Shown: positions 18,676-41,055, counted from the stretch's first letter. The stretch: 64,000 nt of DNA from the human T2T-CHM13v2.0 reference genome, Homo sapiens (GCF_009914755.1 NC_060926.1); one strand, 5' to 3'. Notes: generated from the letters alone by a model not told the origin. Program-made: numbers and translations.

Positions 18676-19001
<326 letters not shown>

Positions 19002-21125: not shown

Positions 21126-21711
21126 AATAGAACCTCAGAGGGTTAACCTACAATACCATCAAATACCATTCAGAATGAGCTTGGCAGTCCTGGTGGAATT
21201 TGGGGATTATTCTATTCCTACTCTGCATTGCTTTACTTGGAAAAAGGGGACTGGATTTTTCTATGAAAAGAATGAGCTTCCCGTGCTCCTGTAAAGACAC
21301 CTTGTAGTCTATGTCTAGAAAGCATTCCTTAATTTTCTTCAATCTGTTTGGAATATCATATAAATAAAAATTTGTATGTTTTCTTTGTAACTCTGGAAAT
21401 GCTAGAGAAAATAAGTTTTCAAATGGTTGTTGAATCACCATGGTTGTCATAATTACTTACCCAATAAATAGTGGAAATCATCATCGACACCATCCTTTTA
21501 TTTTCCTTTTCCTCATCGTTTTCTCCTCATCACTATCCTAACAGTTAGTCTCTGTCATTGTGTTAATATTTTATTTTTCAAAGTACTGTTGAGACCTAAA
21601 TTGTTGCTGATTGTTTCATTTTTGATCAGTTATGTGTTCTGTATTCAGATGCATTAACTATATTTTCTTTTTTTATTTTATGTGTATGTATATATATATT
21701 ATATATATATA

Positions 21712-22005
21712 TTTTTTTTTTTTTTTTTGAGACAGAGTCTCACTCTGTCTCTGAGGCTGGAGTGCAGTGGCCCAATCTCGCTCGCTGCAACCTCTGCCTC
21801 CCGGGTTCAAGCAATTCTCCTGCCTCAGCCTCCCGAATAGCTGGGACTACAGGTGTCCGCCACCACGCCCAGCTAATTTTTATTTTTAGTAGAGACAGGG
21901 TTTCACCATATTGGCCAGGCTGGTCTCGAACTCCTAACCTTGTGATCCGCCCACCTTGGCCTCCCAAAGTGCTGGGATTACACACATGAGCCACCGCACC
22001 TGGCC
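21712..22005 (-). mobile_element. AluSg-like, inserted in the tail of the next Alu
   Basis: Antisense Alu with poly(T); TATATATATTTTTT at both ends. Confidence 0.92.
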
Positions 22006-22013
22006 TATATATA

Positions 22014-22298
22014 TTTTTTGAGACGGAGTTTTGCTCTGTCGCCCAGGCTGGAGTGCAGTGGTGCAAGCTCGGCTCACTGCAACCTCCACCTCTCGGTTCA
22101 AGCAATTCTCTGCCTCAGCCTCCCAAGTCACTGGGATTACAGGTGCGTGCCACCATGCCCGGCTAATTTTTTGTGTTTTTAGTAGAGACGGGGTTTTACT
22201 ATCTTGGCCAGGCTGATCTTGAACTCCTGACCTGGTGATCCACCCGCCTTGGCCTCCCAAAGTGTTGGGATTACAGGTGTGAGCCACCGCACCTGGCC
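22014..22298 (-). mobile_element. AluS (outer element of nested pair)
   Basis: Antisense Alu; TSD ACT(A/C)TATTTTCTTT at 21657-21670 / 22299-22312 brackets both Alus. Confidence 0.92.
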
Positions 22299-22714
22299 AC
22301 TCTATTTTCTTTATGGGAATAAATACAAGATAATAGCTAAATATTTCATCTTTTTCTAGGATTAAAGTGAGGCTTCTTCACCTTAGGGAGTAGCAGAAAG
22401 ATGATATCTGAGAGCCCACATAAACCTAGAAAACCATTGTAAATGATATTGTCGCCAGTGAGAGAAGAGCCAATGGGGTGAAAATATTAATAGATTATGT
22501 CTACAAATTTGAAATGTTACCATTGAAATAAATGAATCAGGCTCACTTGACTAAGAAAAAAGGAAAAGCTTTATAATTTGAATGCTTTCAAATAGAATAG
22601 TGTGTTTATAATCAATAGCATGTTTTCTTTTTAAAATTTCCTATATTTTATTTGAAGTCATCATGAAATGTAAATGGAATAGAAAATTTCCTTTTGGAAA
22701 TAGCAGAATGTTCT

Positions 22715-28862: not shown

Positions 28863-28937
28863 TCTTTGTCTGAGGATTTCACTATAAATGAAATTAGCTG
28901 AAGAAAACCAGGAGAAAACCAGGACACATGCACAACG
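28863..28937 (+). other. Candidate 75-nt non-coding/poison cassette exon
   Basis: C/T-rich tract + TAG acceptor (28862); ACG|GTAAGT donor (28938); stops in all three frames. Confidence 0.35.
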
Positions 28938-29930: not shown

Positions 29931-30244
29931 TTCTTCTCTGAACTCTTGTCTCTTCCCTTACTCTTGTCACCATTATACCTGGAGAGCTACCATTTGCCAG
30001 CTAATATTCAGCCCCAGATGTTCCCCCTGGACAATTTTTCTGAATTTGCCTATCCTTTGGCTCTCAGTAGTTAGGAGTATTTTCCCCTGGGCAGTTCTAG
30101 AGCTTTGTGCTCCTGTTCTGGTACCCCTGGCTCTGTGTTTATGCATCCATGCCTCTTTACTTTGTAATTAGGATGCCCCGAAGGTAGTCATTGAAAATTA
30201 CCATGTCTTTGTACATGGCAACCAGTGGAATGCTTAGCATTGAT

Positions 30245-31690
30245 TATTCATTTATTTATTTAACACATATGTATTGAGTGCTTCATGACGCTTATATTCT
30301 GCTGAGAGGGAGAGAGACAATATAACATTATAACACAGGTAATGATAAGTAGATAGGGGGAGCCAGAGGGGACAAGGTGAAATGGAGAATACTGTCTTAT
30401 TTGTAGAGAAGAGGAAGAGCTTACATTGCTATGAAGGTGCAATCAAGGTGGGGAGAGAGCAATGAGTGTGAAAGCCATAGTCTGGAGTGTGCTTAGGCTC
30501 TTCCAGCAGGAGCAAAGGAACACCTGTGCCTGGAGGTGACTGTGGAGAGAGTTGGAGGTGAAGCTTGACAGGTGCAGTGGGTGGAGGAAGATCTTATTGT
30601 GGGCCACATTGAGGATGTTGACTTTGACTTGGAGTGAATTGGGCACTCATTAGCTTAGACCAGAGGATTTACTTTGAATAATATGAAACAGTCTCAATAA
30701 CTGATCTATTCAGTATGGTAGCCGCTAGTCATGTGTGGCTGTTGAATACTTGTGATGTGGCTACCTTGAATTGAGATGTGCTATATGTAAAACACACATG
30801 GATTTTGAAGATGTCGTATGAAAACTAAGAAAAGTGAAATCATCTGATATATAATTACAGTAATAGGATCACTAGCTGCTGTACTGAGAAAAGATATAGG
30901 GGTGGAAGTGTCAAATGGTTTGGATCAGGGTGATGTCAGTGGAGATGAAGAGATGTGGTCAGATTCTGGGTGTATTGTGAAGGCAGCCTCAAAAAGATTC
31001 ATTGATGGATTAGATGTGGGGAAACAAAAGGAAGTCTAAGAGTCTTTTCTGTGCAACTACAAGAAGGGAGTCCTTTTCTTGAGATGAGAAAGACTGGTTG
31101 AAAGATCTGGGCTGGGGAAAGGGAGAATCAGTAAGTTGTTAGTGTATGTGTTAAGTTAGAGATAACAATTACAAATCTAGACAAAAGATGATTTGACAGT
31201 TATAAAAGACTGGAGTTTATAGAAATGGCTCATATGGAGAAATAAATGTGGGTGTCTCAGCATGGAAGTGGTTTTTGAATCATAAAACTGGATGAGACCA
31301 CTTAGGGAGTGAATGTAGGTCTGTGACTTAGCCCAGGACATTCCAGTATCTATGTGTCAGAGAAAGGTTGGGAAAATGCAAGAACTGGCAAGGGAGGAGA
31401 ACCAGAGGAGGGTGGTGTCTAAGCACCCAAATGAAGAAAGTATTTCAAGAAGAAGGGAATGATCAGCTGTAAGATGAGTAAGATGAGGACTCTGAAAAAT
31501 GGTAATTTGATTTGACAAGTTGGAGGTCACTGATCATTCCCAGGAGAGCTATTTCATTGAAATGGGGAGTATGAAAGTGGAGGCAGTGAGTGGAGCCAGT
31601 GCTTTTAAGGTGTTATGCTTTAAAGTTTAACAAAGAAATGAGAAAGTGCTTGGAGGAGAATATAGAGTCAGATGAGGGATTTTTATGAGA
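30245..31690 (-). mobile_element. Long L2 remnant containing the MER33-derived insert
   Basis: ATTCATTTATTTATTTAACACATATGTATTGAGTGC start; GGATCACTAGCTGCTG, GTGGTCAGATTCTGGG, AAGATGAGGACT motifs. Confidence 0.8.
30697..30830. mobile_element. MER33 terminal fragment, inverted relative to the 31.8-32.1 kb copy
   Basis: GGTAGCCGCTAGTCATGTGTGGCT...AATTGAGATGTGCT...GATTTTGAAGA. Confidence 0.85.
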
Positions 31691-31770
31691 TGACCACAAG
31701 TATAACTAAATAAATGGTTTTTTTTTGCATGATAGATTAATAAATAAGCAAATGCATGTATTTAAAGATT

Positions 31771-32085
31771 CTAAAGCTGTGCTGTCCAAAAGAAATTGCA
31801 TGTTAGCCATATATGTAATTTTAAATATTTTAGTAGCCTCATTCAAATGTGAAAAGATACAGCACAAATTAATTTTAATAGCATAGTTTATTTAACTCAG
31901 TATATCCACAAACTTGAATATATAATGGAAAAGTTATGGAAATAAGGCATGTTTTGTCTCATAGTAAGTCTTGAAAACCCATGTGTATTTTATGTATAGC
32001 ACATCTCAGTTTGGGGTAGCCACATCACAAGTGTTCAACAGCCACATGTGGCTAGTGGCTACCATACTGAATAGCTCAGTTCTTA
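31771..32085. mobile_element. Near full-length MER33 (hAT-Charlie)
   Basis: GCTGTGCTGTCCAA...GCCATATATGTAATTTTAAA...AGCCACATGTGGCTAGTGGCTACC. Confidence 0.88.
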
Positions 32086-34639
32086 AGACTGTGCCTTATG
32101 AATAGAAAAGAGCTGTTGTTGAAAGTAAAGCAGAATAACTTTTATTATATTATTAATTCAAAGTATATATTCATAAAAGTTTATGCAAAATGAATGAGAA
32201 ATTAATTAAGGCTCTGTAATTTGTTCCATTTATGTGATTACATAAGTAAATCTATTTTATATAGAAAATATGACTGTGTCCCTTTCAAAGACACTAAGAC
32301 CTTATCTTAAACTCTATTTTAGTTAAAAAAAAAAAAAGTTAATTGCCATTTCAACTGTGTGGTTTGTAGTAAAATTTGAAATGGGTTTAATGTCATTTAT
32401 AACATTTGTAAAGTTTTGGGTGATTTAAAGGGCATTAAGGGTTTTTTTGATGAATTATACATGTTGGTATTCAGAGATTAATGGTGTCCTTTGCAAAGAA
32501 TGTGTGTATTCTACTTGAATCTGTTGAAATTGTAGTAATGGAATTGCATTTTTGCAAGGCTGTATGTTATACAGACATTTTCTTTAAACAAATAGTTTGA
32601 GGTGAGGAAAAAACAGAAAAAGGACTATAAACCAGGGCTGGAATATGTTAAATCTCATTTTTTAAGGAATATTAACAAAACATGAAAGATATTATAGTGA
32701 CAGGCATTTTTACTTTTTTTTTTTCATTTCCTGTCATGGGCAAGTCAAACATCCATGCCCCAGCTTCCTCATTATTAACAGGAGATATATTAAATGCTCC
32801 TTAAAATACAACACTTCTGTGATTCTCTGAAATGGAGCTTATTATAGTAAATTGCAAATTTCTAGTAAGTTATAACTGCTGAATACAAACATTTTGCATC
32901 TAATAATGAAAATATGAAATAAAGAAATAAACACTGTAAAACCCAACCCCCAAATGCTTGAAGATCACTCCTGGGCTGAGTTGTTGGTGTTTCAGGGTTG
33001 GACATTTAAAGGGGATTTCATGAAAATTAAATTTCTTGGGTTTGTTTTTTCAAAGTTTTAAAATATATGTTTATAGATGACATGGATAAAATGAACTAAG
33101 GTAATATAAATAGTGCCTTTCAAAGAGCAATAAAAGAATGCCTTTGGTCCATAAAAGGAGAGATTATCAAAAAGAATAAACTTGATTAGAAGAAATAAAA
33201 GTAGATTTATTTTAAAAGGGAAAATGGAATTTATTCCTTTAAAATACAGAAGCACTAACTTAAAAATGTTTGGACTATAGTAATAGATTTTTTGAAAAGT
33301 AGAGAATTAAGGAGAAAGACCTACCAAAAAAACCCCATAATTCAAGTGTACATGGAGCAATGTGAAGGGAAGGATGTGCAAATGTGCATTTATGTTGGGA
33401 AAAATCAAGGAGCCTGTTTAAAAATAGAACCTACTTAGAGACAAAAACTAGATTAGGAGGCGTTAGGTTATGTTAGAAAAGTAGTTTATTTTCCTTCTAC
33501 AAGCTGTATATGGTTTTTGAATCATTTTTAAAAGGCTAATTTGAAATGTGTTTTGCAATTTTAAACCAAAAGCTTTTTATGCAACTTTAAGAAAAGGATA
33601 CTTATCCTATTTTTATAACCATGAAATATCTATAACTTTGCATTACCTAGCCCTTTAAAACTCAGAATATAATTTAGATAATTTACAAAACTGATGTTAT
33701 AACCCAGCCAAAGCTAGTGTTTTTCAGTTATCAGGTATTTAACCGATATATATCTATGAGATTTCTTAAATTTATATTAATTTATTCTATGAACATTTAT
33801 ACTATCACATATTTTTGTAATAACAAGCTAAGAAAATTATTATTGTTGCATTAAATTGTTTACTGAACATTTATTGTTTTATGCAAATAAATGTTTTCAA
33901 ACTTAGTGAGCTCCCCCGCCAAAAAAAGAACCAATACTAACTGTATTGTGCTTTATCTTTAGGATATATTATCCTCCTTATTCAGATTCCATGTACATAT
34001 GATTCCTTATCCCTATTTACACTCACTTTTCCTGAGAACTTTTTGACTATAGGAACTGAAAGAGTATGTGCATGAAAGCAAGCAGTTGGAAAGGACTTAA
34101 AAATACTTAAAAGAAATAGTTTTTAGAGTTAGATGGGGGTCTACCTGAAAGCAGTATTGACTCTTATTTTTTGTAAACAATATCTGAAAAGGTAGACAGG
34201 ATATAAACAAAGGATAGTACTATTGATTTAGCTGTATAGTAAATACTCCCTTTCAATAAAATCTGAGCATAAATAATTTTCTGTGACTTTTCTTCAACCG
34301 TAAGCACTTTGGTTTTGGAATGTACAGGTTCTCTACTCAGACTTTCCTTAAACCAAAGTTTTCTGCTGTGGGACCTCTCACACTGTATTCTCTGTACTTG
34401 TTCTGTGAAATGGGATTCTGCAAATGCTAGCTATTATTATTCATCACTCTACTTAGAATAATTAACAAATGAGATAACTAGAGGTTAGGTTTTATAAAGG
34501 AGGATGAATTAGATGTCAGCAAAGTAAGGGGCTTTTTGCATTGAATCAATAATGAAAGTAAATAAAGGTAAGAGGAAGTTGGTCTTGGCCTCCATGTCAT
34601 GCTTCTGTTTCTGGGTATTATCTAGAGGCGCTGTGCTGC

Positions 34640-40672: not shown

Positions 40673-41055
<383 letters not shown>

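What the first reader, a model, noticed from the sequence alone, without database searches (positions are those of the whole stretch)
30699..32081. Inverted MER33 pair forms an 87-bp duplex whose 11 differences are all G-U wobbles on the + strand: candidate selected long-range RNA helix
Seen: aligning 30699 onward with the reverse complement of 32081 backward gives an ungapped match. In the core (30706-30792 vs 32074-31988) 76 positions are Watson-Crick and all 11 differences are T-vs-C or G-vs-A, i.e. U-G/G-U pairs in + strand RNA but A-C mismatches on the other strand. Non-pairing differences occur only at the edges (alignment positions 7, 95, 104, 109). The loop is about 1.2 kb. From the recalled MER33 consensus, both arms share derived bases (CTATTCAGT, GTTGAA-ACTTGTGATG, GCTACC). 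Inference: a one-directional 11/11 bias (about 1 in 2000 if symmetric, though the core boundary was chosen after the fact) is the signature of selection on an RNA helix. This would be a DNA-transposon-derived intronic stem that might affect splicing of the candidate exon at 28863, circularisation or ADAR editing. Transcription-associated A>G/C>T asymmetry could explain part of the bias.
Basis: partly seen in the sequence, partly recalled or inferred. Interest (0 to 1): 0.85.

Follow-up and report, generated by a model that had tools for sequence, protein, structure and literature searches.

The report
Inverted transposon pair, wobble bias unproven
Two old copies of the same small DNA transposon lie head-out in a PARD3B intron and could fold into a long RNA hairpin, but the one-sided wobble-pair pattern is rare without being beyond what chance yields across a whole genome, and nothing here shows it is selected.

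Summary
Arm 30706-30792 pairs with 32074-31988 as 76 Watson-Crick plus 11 G:U pairs on the + strand, with no other mismatch.

The arms are the first 133 nt of two inverted copies of one ~320-bp repeat family. I recall the name MER33; no repeat library was available to check it. They share 15 derived columns, including two deletions, so they had a recent common sequence.

The 11 wobbles are 8 independent events, because three are CpG doublets. Over the whole 133-nt arm the count is 12 G:U, 3 A:C and 6 other.

Local mutation asymmetry does not explain the bias. Eleven Alus in the window give 121 G:U-making against 126 A:C-making changes.

The pattern is rare per pair: about 2-6 x 10^-4 in simulation, and 0 of 27 other real pairs and 0 of 2,553 pseudo-pairs reach 11. 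The genome holds roughly 2-3 x 10^5 such pairs, so tens to hundreds are expected by chance.

Each arm's total divergence sits near the family median, so no constraint is visible.

Most likely this is a neutral inverted-repeat pair that forms intronic double-stranded RNA as a by-product. Selection is not excluded (about 0.1). The decisive test, comparison with orthologous sequence in other species, could not be run.

The parts
30689..30856 (+). Copy A of the ~320-bp repeat family (recalled name MER33). Only the 5' half is present, starting at the terminal CAG.
   Evidence: At least 5 BLAST matches to other copies cover 30694-30856. No similarity to the family is seen beyond about 30856.
30689..30821 (+). 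Arm A of the inverted repeat, the part of copy A that pairs with copy B.
   Evidence: over 133 nt there are 112 Watson-Crick, 12 G:U, 3 A:C and 6 other pairs. The outer flanks are not homologous.
30706..30792 (+). Core of arm A: 87 nt with only Watson-Crick and G:U pairs on the + strand.
   Evidence: One search gives 76 Watson-Crick and 11 G:U pairs. Duplex energy is -151.8 kcal/mol on the + strand and -120.0 on the - strand.
30857..31766 (.). Spacer (the loop). It is unique in the genome apart from pieces of an older interspersed repeat at about 30916-31491.
   Evidence: the only full-length match is to itself, with weak matches of 73-94% over 35-107 nt elsewhere; 60-79% identity to 9 loci. 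No Rfam family was found in 30000-32800.
31767..32091 (-). Copy B of the same family, full length (about 325 nt), in reverse orientation.
   Evidence: Family matches cover 31771-32089. Its ends show a short, weak terminal inverted repeat, 16 of 21 aligned positions.
31959..32091 (+). Arm B of the inverted repeat, read on the + strand as the 3' half of the RNA helix.
   Evidence: The helix is present in the minimum-energy and centroid structures of 30681-32099.
31988..32074 (+). Core of arm B.

Best explanation
This is a neutral pair of inverted copies of one old non-autonomous hAT-type transposon family in a deep PARD3B intron. Copy B is full length and copy A is a 5' half. Their first ~120-133 nt were identical more recently than the family's spread. 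The likeliest cause is non-allelic gene conversion between two neighbouring insertions; re-insertion from the same source copy is the alternative. Since then they have diverged by ordinary point mutation: three CpG decays in each arm, eight other transitions (five G:U-making, three A:C-making in R1) and a few transversions. When PARD3B pre-mRNA is made, the arms can fold into a long hairpin with a ~1.1-kb loop, as any intronic inverted repeat does. That makes it a plausible ADAR substrate, but as a by-product rather than a maintained function. The run of 11 sense-strand wobbles in the middle is a rare chance arrangement. Shown here: the anatomy, the shared ancestry, the predicted fold, the absence of local strand asymmetry and the rarity per pair. 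Inferred: gene conversion, neutrality and duplex formation in cells.
For: - Family and anatomy: 158 candidates in the same genome, of which 40 were scored. The other copies are 74-81% identical to arm A; arm B is 86%.
- Recent common sequence: in 30694-30806 there are 15 shared derived columns, with 7 changes private to A and 8 private to B. Six of the shared columns occur in at most 1 of 28 other copies, and these include a 2-nt and a 1-nt deletion. A differs from B by 14.2%, lower than all 378 pairs of other copies (minimum 16.7%).
- Homology stops at the element end. It collapses beyond 30821, where A and B differ at 27 of 35 positions. This fits a conversion tract. Print reports conversion between neighbouring Alus within about 10 kb (PMC8230782, passages).
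- No visible constraint: the arms differ from the family consensus by 19.8% and 20.7%, against a median of 19.8% for other copies (ranks 13 and 18 of 28). Copy B's paired part ranks 18 of 28 in divergence, while its unpaired part ranks 8 of 28 (8 of 21 among copies that carry that part).
- Fewer independent events than 11: three CpG doublets, three non-CpG C>T and two A>G. The whole arm gives 9 against 3 events, P = 0.073.
- Multiplicity: 19 inverted pairs in 178,576 bases and 11 in 184,000, which extrapolates to about 2-3 x 10^5 per genome. At a per-pair P of 2-6 x 10^-4 that gives tens to hundreds by chance.
- Fold.
Against: - The pair is the extreme of everything I compared. The longest same-strand wobble run is 6 in 27 other real inverted pairs, 8 in 30 Alu pseudo-pairs from the window, 10 in 378 family pseudo-pairs and 10 in 2,145 Alu pseudo-pairs. 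None reaches 11. The longest mismatch-free stretch in the 10 neighbouring pairs is 46 nt, against 87 here.
- Local strand asymmetry, the obvious neutral explanation, fails.
- The wobbles fall on the transcribed strand.
- All three CpGs of the arms' last common sequence have decayed in both arms, although non-CpG private divergence is only 4.7-5.9% per arm. The probability is 0.003-0.008 with the hazard ratio measured on local Alus, or 0.016-0.11 with higher ratios.
- Non-CpG differences are sparser in the core (5 of 81) than in the arm's flanks (10 of 46): Fisher P = 0.019, or 0.062 after dropping the two mismatches that define the core.
- The equal-total-divergence argument is noisy, since the family ranges from 12.0 to 27.6%. 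It also loses force if the shared changes predate insertion.
Confidence: 0.8

Rival explanations
1. The 87-bp core is kept by purifying selection as a duplex in sense-strand PARD3B pre-mRNA. It might act as a platform for a double-stranded-RNA-binding protein, an editing or processing substrate, or a loop-out element. Under this view only G:U-making changes (C>T and A>G on the + strand) and compensated changes were tolerated after an old split.
For: - There are 11 of 11 sense-strand wobbles and no transversion in 87 nt.
- Per-pair P is 2-6 x 10^-4, and it is the extreme of all controls.
- No local asymmetry explains it.
- The CpG clock looks older than the non-CpG clock, and the core is sparser in differences than its flanks. 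An allowed-change fraction of about one third would fit 5 non-CpG differences in 81 nt (inference).
- The + strand duplex is 31.8 kcal/mol more stable than the - strand one.
Against: - One mismatch in a helix of -150 kcal/mol barely changes folding, so per-site selection strong enough to exclude every mismatch is implausible at primate population sizes (inference).
- Total divergence of both arms is near the family median, and copy B's paired part is relatively more diverged than its unpaired part.
- The shared deletions argue for descent or conversion, not compensation.
- No exon, RNA family or annotated element lies in or next to the loop (hub annotation).
- The core boundary was chosen after the fact, and tens to hundreds of chance cases are expected per genome.
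- The unpaired part of copy B also leans the same way: 13 G:U-making against 7 A:C-making changes.
Confidence: 0.1
2. A strand-coordinated mutational process produced the bias. The candidates are cytosine deamination on transiently single-stranded + strand DNA during transcription or replication, or strand-specific handling of mismatches in a hairpin extruded from one strand. Either would act on both arms alike and give mostly C>T on the + strand, without any RNA-level selection.
For: - Polarised changes in the differing positions are 9 C>T against 1 G>A on the + strand, taking the three doublets as CpG decay as in my reading, while A>G against T>C is 2 against 2. The asymmetry therefore lies in one mutation class.
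- The window shows long-term skews of the right sign: TA +0.040 and GC +0.066.
- Copy B's unpaired part gives 6 C>T against 2 G>A.
Against: - The 11 Alus of the same window show C>T 94 against G>A 102 on the + strand.
- The other 10 inverted pairs in 184 kb of the intron give 183 against 177.
- Print places the C>T/G>A asymmetry only in the first 1-2 kb of transcripts, whereas this site is about 347 kb from the gene start (PMC2927911, section 5; hub annotation).
- It does not explain the absence of transversions in the core.
Confidence: 0.05

Closest known systems
Intronic inverted repeats of interspersed elements (mostly Alu pairs) that form long double-stranded RNA and are ADAR targets
   Same: Two copies of one repeat family lie in opposite orientation within about 1.1 kb in the same pre-mRNA. 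A stable long duplex is predicted. Such pairs are common, roughly one per 9-17 kb in the sequence I held.
   Different: The arms come from an old DNA-transposon family, not Alu. The duplex is shorter (133 nt), but its 87-nt mismatch-free core is longer than in any of the 10 neighbouring pairs (at most 46 nt). Editing was not tested.
Conserved long-range RNA structures in human introns (pairs of conserved complementary regions; PMC8052449, passages read)
   Same: Complementary intronic segments within 10 kb that could loop out RNA.
   Different: Those catalogues require cross-species conservation and exclude everything in RepeatMasker. This pair would not be listed in them, and its conservation is unknown. 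Typical helices there are far shorter (minimum 10 nt, energy threshold -15 kcal/mol).
Non-allelic gene conversion between neighbouring interspersed repeats (Aleshin and Zhi 2010, as summarised in PMC8230782, passages)
   Same: The neighbouring copies are more alike than family members elsewhere (14.2% against at least 16.7%). Shared non-diagnostic changes are present, and the similarity has a sharp boundary within the element.
   Different: The published evidence concerns Alu, not old DNA transposons. Conversion here is inferred from one genome. Insertion of both copies from the same source is not excluded.
MER33, a non-autonomous deletion product of the hAT element Charlie5 (PMC3525145, passages)
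   Same: A multi-copy family of about 320 nt with weak terminal inverted repeats and a start at CAG.
   Different: The name could not be checked, because no repeat library was on hand. Target-site duplications of 8 bp were not recovered.

Membership tests
MER33 / hAT-Charlie non-autonomous DNA transposon | Interspersed multi-copy family with a unit length of about 320 bp | tested here: met
   158 candidates, 40 scored, on many chromosomes; the common extent is about 320 nt in most of the 28 other copies, and 325 nt in copy B.
MER33 / hAT-Charlie non-autonomous DNA transposon | Match to the curated consensus of that family | not testable with these tools
No repeat library (Dfam or Repbase) was available.
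MER33 / hAT-Charlie non-autonomous DNA transposon | Terminal inverted repeats | tested here: inconclusive
   the first 24 nt of copy B against the reverse complement of its last 22 nt match at 16 of 21 aligned positions, with a low score of 8.
MER33 / hAT-Charlie non-autonomous DNA transposon | 8-bp target-site duplications | tested here: inconclusive
   0 of 29 copies have at least 7 of 8 matching flanks, and 3 of 29 have at least 6, the same as the offset control (3 of 29). The copies are old and their ends in the alignment are imprecise.
Intronic inverted-repeat double-stranded RNA (ADAR-substrate type) | Two inverted copies within one transcription unit, on the transcribed strand | tested here: met
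   The hub annotation places the whole window inside PARD3B on the + strand.
Intronic inverted-repeat double-stranded RNA (ADAR-substrate type) | Thermodynamically favoured long duplex | tested here: met
   the helix is in the minimum-energy and centroid structures of the 1419-nt RNA; the core is -151.8 kcal/mol and the 133-nt arms -195.6 kcal/mol.
Intronic inverted-repeat double-stranded RNA (ADAR-substrate type) | A-to-I editing or a duplex signal in RNA data | not testable with these tools
   No RNA data were available. A paper search for PARD3B with A-to-I found 1 paper, a review, which I did not open.
Selected (conserved) long-range RNA helix | Covariation or pair-preserving substitution across species | not testable with these tools
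   No other mammalian genome is held. Only the window's own assembly could be searched.
Selected (conserved) long-range RNA helix | Lower substitution rate than comparable neutral sequence | tested here: inconclusive
   Against: arm divergence is 19.8% and 20.7% against a family median of 19.8%, and the paired part of copy B is relatively more diverged than its unpaired part. For: the core has 5 of 81 non-CpG differences against 10 of 46 in the flanks, and the CpG clock looks older.
Selected (conserved) long-range RNA helix | Strand-specific wobble pairs beyond mutational expectation | tested here: inconclusive
   The bias is real and is not explained by local asymmetry. Per-pair P is 2-6 x 10^-4. 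With about 2-3 x 10^5 pairs per genome, that is within chance expectation.

The most novel reading that the evidence does not exclude
An 87-bp perfect (Watson-Crick plus G:U) duplex built from two copies of an old DNA transposon has been held intact by selection in sense PARD3B pre-mRNA since the arms last shared a sequence. It would be a repeat-derived, long-range, functional double-stranded RNA element of a type that published catalogues exclude by design, because they mask repeats.
Probability: 0.1. Interest if true: 0.7.

Novelty: new member of a known kind. Interest (0 to 1): 0.2.

Why it matters
If neutral, as I judge most likely, it is one more intronic inverted-repeat hairpin. Its use is as a worked example: an 11-of-11 wobble bias shrinks to 8 events once CpG doublets are recognised, and a per-pair P near 10^-3 to 10^-4 is unremarkable against hundreds of thousands of inverted pairs.

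If the selected reading were true, it would show that repeat-derived helices, which catalogues of conserved RNA structure discard, can be functional. It would also give a concrete element to test in a 1-Mb polarity gene. The case is cheap to settle with existing multi-species alignments.

Tried and rejected
- Rfam scan of 30000-32800, both strands, E up to 1: no match. No known RNA family lies in the arms or the loop.
- Segmental inverted duplication: rejected. The 200-nt outer flanks share no colinear similarity (score 12 against a shuffle mean of 9.0, 4% of shuffles reach it, and the match is offset by about 55 nt). The inner flanks share none either.
- A composite or fold-back element that is itself repeated: rejected. 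The spacer has only itself as a full-length match, and only 1 of 28 other copies has any second family match within 1.5 kb.
- The spacer as the internal part of the autonomous parent element: no family ends lie next to the 9 loci that match the spacer.
- Transcription-associated asymmetry as the cause: rejected.
- Compensatory evolution as the source of the shared derived bases: rejected as the main cause, because the shared states include a 2-nt and a 1-nt deletion and the arms' total divergence is ordinary.
- Target-site duplications to prove hAT membership: not recovered.
I used 120 kb of adjoining intron instead.
- Paper searches for MER33, PARD3B with circRNA, and PARD3B with A-to-I gave nothing about this site. 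I saw listings only, apart from the passages cited. Supplementary tables of editing or circular-RNA studies were not examined and could bear on it.

Full report
**Observation**

In 30706-30792 against 32074-31988 there are 76 Watson-Crick pairs and 11 positions that are G:U on the + strand and A:C on the - strand. Nothing else occurs in that stretch.

The repeat finder extends the inverted repeat to 30681-30821 against 31959-32099 (141 nt, 83% complementary, 1137 nt apart). Over those 141 nt the tally is 117 Watson-Crick, 12 G:U, 4 A:C and 8 other.

**What the arms are**

A search of the window's own genome with arm A gave 158 candidates. Forty were scored, on many chromosomes. Arm B is 86% identical to arm A; all the other copies are 74-81% identical.

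I aligned 28 of those copies with both arms. The alignment shows a unit of about 320 nt.
- Copy B is full length on the - strand (31767/31771-32091).
- Copy A carries only the first half on the + strand (30689/30694-30856).
- The two copies therefore lie head-out, with their 5' ends outward.

Print calls MER33 a deletion product of the hAT element Charlie5 (PMC3525145, passages). No repeat library was available to confirm the name. Target-site duplications were not recovered, and the terminal inverted repeat is weak.

The 910-nt spacer is unique in the genome, apart from pieces of an older repeat at about 30916-31491. Rfam finds nothing in 30000-32800. Only 1 of 28 other copies has any second family match within 1.5 kb, so the inverted arrangement is not a property of the family.

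**Shared ancestry, not compensation**

In 30694-30806 the arms share 15 columns that differ from the family majority. Seven further changes are private to A and eight are private to B.
- Nine of the shared columns also occur in 3-10 of the 28 other copies. These look like subfamily or recurrent states.
- Six occur in at most one other copy, and these include a 2-nt and a 1-nt deletion.

A and B differ by 14.2%. That is less than any of the 378 pairs of other copies (mean 30.3%, minimum 16.7%).

Homology stops at the element terminus, and the outer flanks show no colinear similarity. It also collapses beyond 30821, where A and B differ at 27 of 35 positions although each still resembles the family.

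Identical deletions in both arms are what descent or copying predicts, not stepwise compensation. The sharp inner boundary fits a gene-conversion tract between two neighbouring insertions. Print reports such conversion for neighbouring Alus within about 10 kb (PMC8230782, passages). Insertion of both copies from one source copy remains possible.

**How many events**

Polarising the differences against the family columns gives the following.
- Six of the 11 wobbles lie in three doublets (30732/33, 30767/68, 30786/87). Arm A reads TG and arm B, in element orientation, reads CA. The family shows TG, CA and TA mixtures at these columns, with a single surviving CG among the 28 copies at 30732/33.
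- These are CpG sites that decayed in both arms. For such a site TG/TG (two wobbles), CA/CA (two A:C) and the two invisible complementary outcomes have odds of 1:1:2. Each doublet therefore counts as one visible event.
- The other five wobbles are three non-CpG C>T in arm A (30729, 30747, 30766) and two A>G (30724 in arm A, 32009 in arm B).

So 8 events, not 11, point the same way (2^-8 = 0.0039). Within the 133 nt that belong to the element the tally is 12 G:U, 3 A:C and 6 other. That is 9 against 3 events, with one-sided P = 0.073.

**Is the local mutation spectrum skewed?**

The + strand of the window has a TA skew of +0.040 and a GC skew of +0.066, the sign expected for a + strand gene. 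The direct controls, however, show no bias.
- Eleven ~300-nt repeats in the window (Alu, by recall) give 121 G:U-making (C>T 94, A>G 27) against 126 A:C-making (G>A 102, T>C 24) changes on the + strand. Singletons give 30 against 32.
- The ten other inverted pairs in 184 kb of the same intron give 183 sense-strand G:U against 177 A:C.
- Print reports that C>T/G>A departs from 1 only in the first 1-2 kb of transcripts (PMC2927911, section 5). This site is about 347 kb from the gene start.

This result counts against my own reading and I report it as such. The unpaired part of copy B leans mildly the same way: 13 G:U-making against 7 A:C-making changes.

**How rare is the pattern?**

I simulated two arms evolving independently from their inferred common sequence, with a transition:transversion ratio of 1.7-2.5 and a CpG rate of 10-15x. 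Conditioning on 18-24 differences, a run of at least 11 same-strand wobbles occurred with P = 0.00034, 0.00064 and 0.00019 under the three settings (n = 14,601, 23,565 and 15,860).

Real data agree in order of magnitude. None of the following reaches 11.

| Comparison set | n | Longest same-strand wobble run |
|---|---|---|
| Other real inverted pairs | 27 | 6 |
| Window Alu pseudo-pairs | 30 | 8 |
| Family pseudo-pairs | 378 | 10 |
| Alu pseudo-pairs from 66 copies | 2,145 | 10 (in 4 pairs) |

The tail of the largest set (25, 11 and 4 pairs at runs of 8, 9 and 10) points to roughly 10^-3. Pseudo-pairs are not independent of one another.

Against this stands multiplicity. Inverted pairs with arms of at least 80 nt and a spacer of at most 3 kb number 19 in 178,576 bases and 11 in 184,000 bases. 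That extrapolates to about 2-3 x 10^5 in 3.1 Gb, so tens to hundreds of such runs are expected by chance in one genome. The core boundaries were also chosen after seeing the data.

**Is there any sign of constraint?**

Against constraint:
- Each arm differs from the family majority by 19.8% and 20.7%. The 28 other copies have a median of 19.8% and a range of 12.0-27.6%.
- The paired part of copy B ranks 18 of 28 in divergence. Its unpaired part ranks 8 of 28, or 8 of 21 among copies that carry that part.
- If the 15 shared changes had come from an unusually divergent source copy, the unpaired part of copy B should be unusually divergent too. It is not. This favours changes that accumulated in place and were then copied across.

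Two points fit constraint and remain unexplained:
- All three CpGs of the last common sequence decayed in both arms, while non-CpG private divergence is only 4.7-5.9% per arm. With the CpG hazard measured on the local Alus (113 of 194 CpGs decayed at 8.6% non-CpG divergence, ratio 10.1), the probability of six out of six is 0.003-0.008. With ratios of 15-20 it is 0.016-0.11.
- Non-CpG differences are sparser in the core (5 of 81) than in the arm's flanks (10 of 46). Fisher P = 0.019, or 0.062 after dropping the two mismatches that define the core.

Neither point is independent of the pattern that drew attention in the first place.

**Mechanism**

As RNA, 30681-32099 folds with the long helix in both the minimum-energy and the centroid structure. 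The antisense RNA does too, with internal loops where the wobbles become A:C. The core duplex is -151.8 kcal/mol on the + strand and -120.0 on the - strand.

In PARD3B pre-mRNA the arms can therefore form a hairpin with a loop of about 1.1 kb, as intronic inverted repeats generally do. Whether it forms in cells, or is edited, was not testable here.

A single A:C mismatch in such a helix would hardly change its formation. Selection able to exclude every mismatch over 87 bp seems implausible to me (inference). No exon or annotated element lies in or beside the loop. The nearest annotated exon starts at 41049.

**Verdict**

The anatomy and the count are right, and the pattern is unusual for one pair. 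The inference of selection is not supported by the tests I could run, and it rests on a statistic that a genome-wide scan is expected to turn up by chance.

| Reading | Weight |
|---|---|
| Neutral inverted pair, homogenised once and then diverging, with the hairpin as a by-product | about 0.8 |
| Selected helix | about 0.1 |
| Strand-coordinated mutational process | about 0.05 |

The published catalogues of long-range RNA structure mask repeats (PMC8052449 and PMC10691357, passages), so they cannot speak to this site. Multi-species alignments would settle the question quickly.

Noticed in passing
window 30807-30816 / 31964-31973: Five differences between the arms fall within 10 nt, four of them transversions, just where the similarity between the arms ends. 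This could be the edge of a conversion tract or one complex mutation.
   Followed up: partly
window 18684-18978 and 21704-21997: A second inverted pair lies in the same intron: ~300-nt repeats (Alu by recall), 84% identical, 2.7 kb apart. On the sense strand it has 10 G:U against 18 A:C, and its longest mismatch-free stretch is 46 nt.
   Followed up: partly
window 21712-22005 and 22008-22299: Two ~290-nt Alu-like copies sit head to tail in the same orientation, with a 2-nt gap between them.
   Followed up: no
window 30916-31491: The loop carries an older interspersed repeat, 60-79% identical to 9 loci elsewhere and not associated with ends of the arm family. I did not identify the family.
   Followed up: partly
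L022:2113-2273 and 2543-2703: A 161-nt inverted pair, 97.5% identical with a spacer of about 270 nt, lies next to an unrelated copy of the arm family on another chromosome. It is much younger or better kept than the pair studied here.
   Followed up: no
whole window; also 60 kb on each side (L041-L052): The + strand is rich in T over A and G over C: TA skew +0.040 and GC skew +0.066 in the window, +0.036 and +0.054 over 184 kb. This is the sign expected for a + strand gene, yet substitutions in Alus of the window show no matching transition asymmetry.
   Followed up: partly
outside the window, window coordinates -55786..-54945 and -52617..-51815 (L047): An 848-nt inverted pair, 69% identical and about 2.3 kb apart, in the same intron. 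On the sense strand it has 57 G:U against 48 A:C. I did not identify the family.
   Followed up: no
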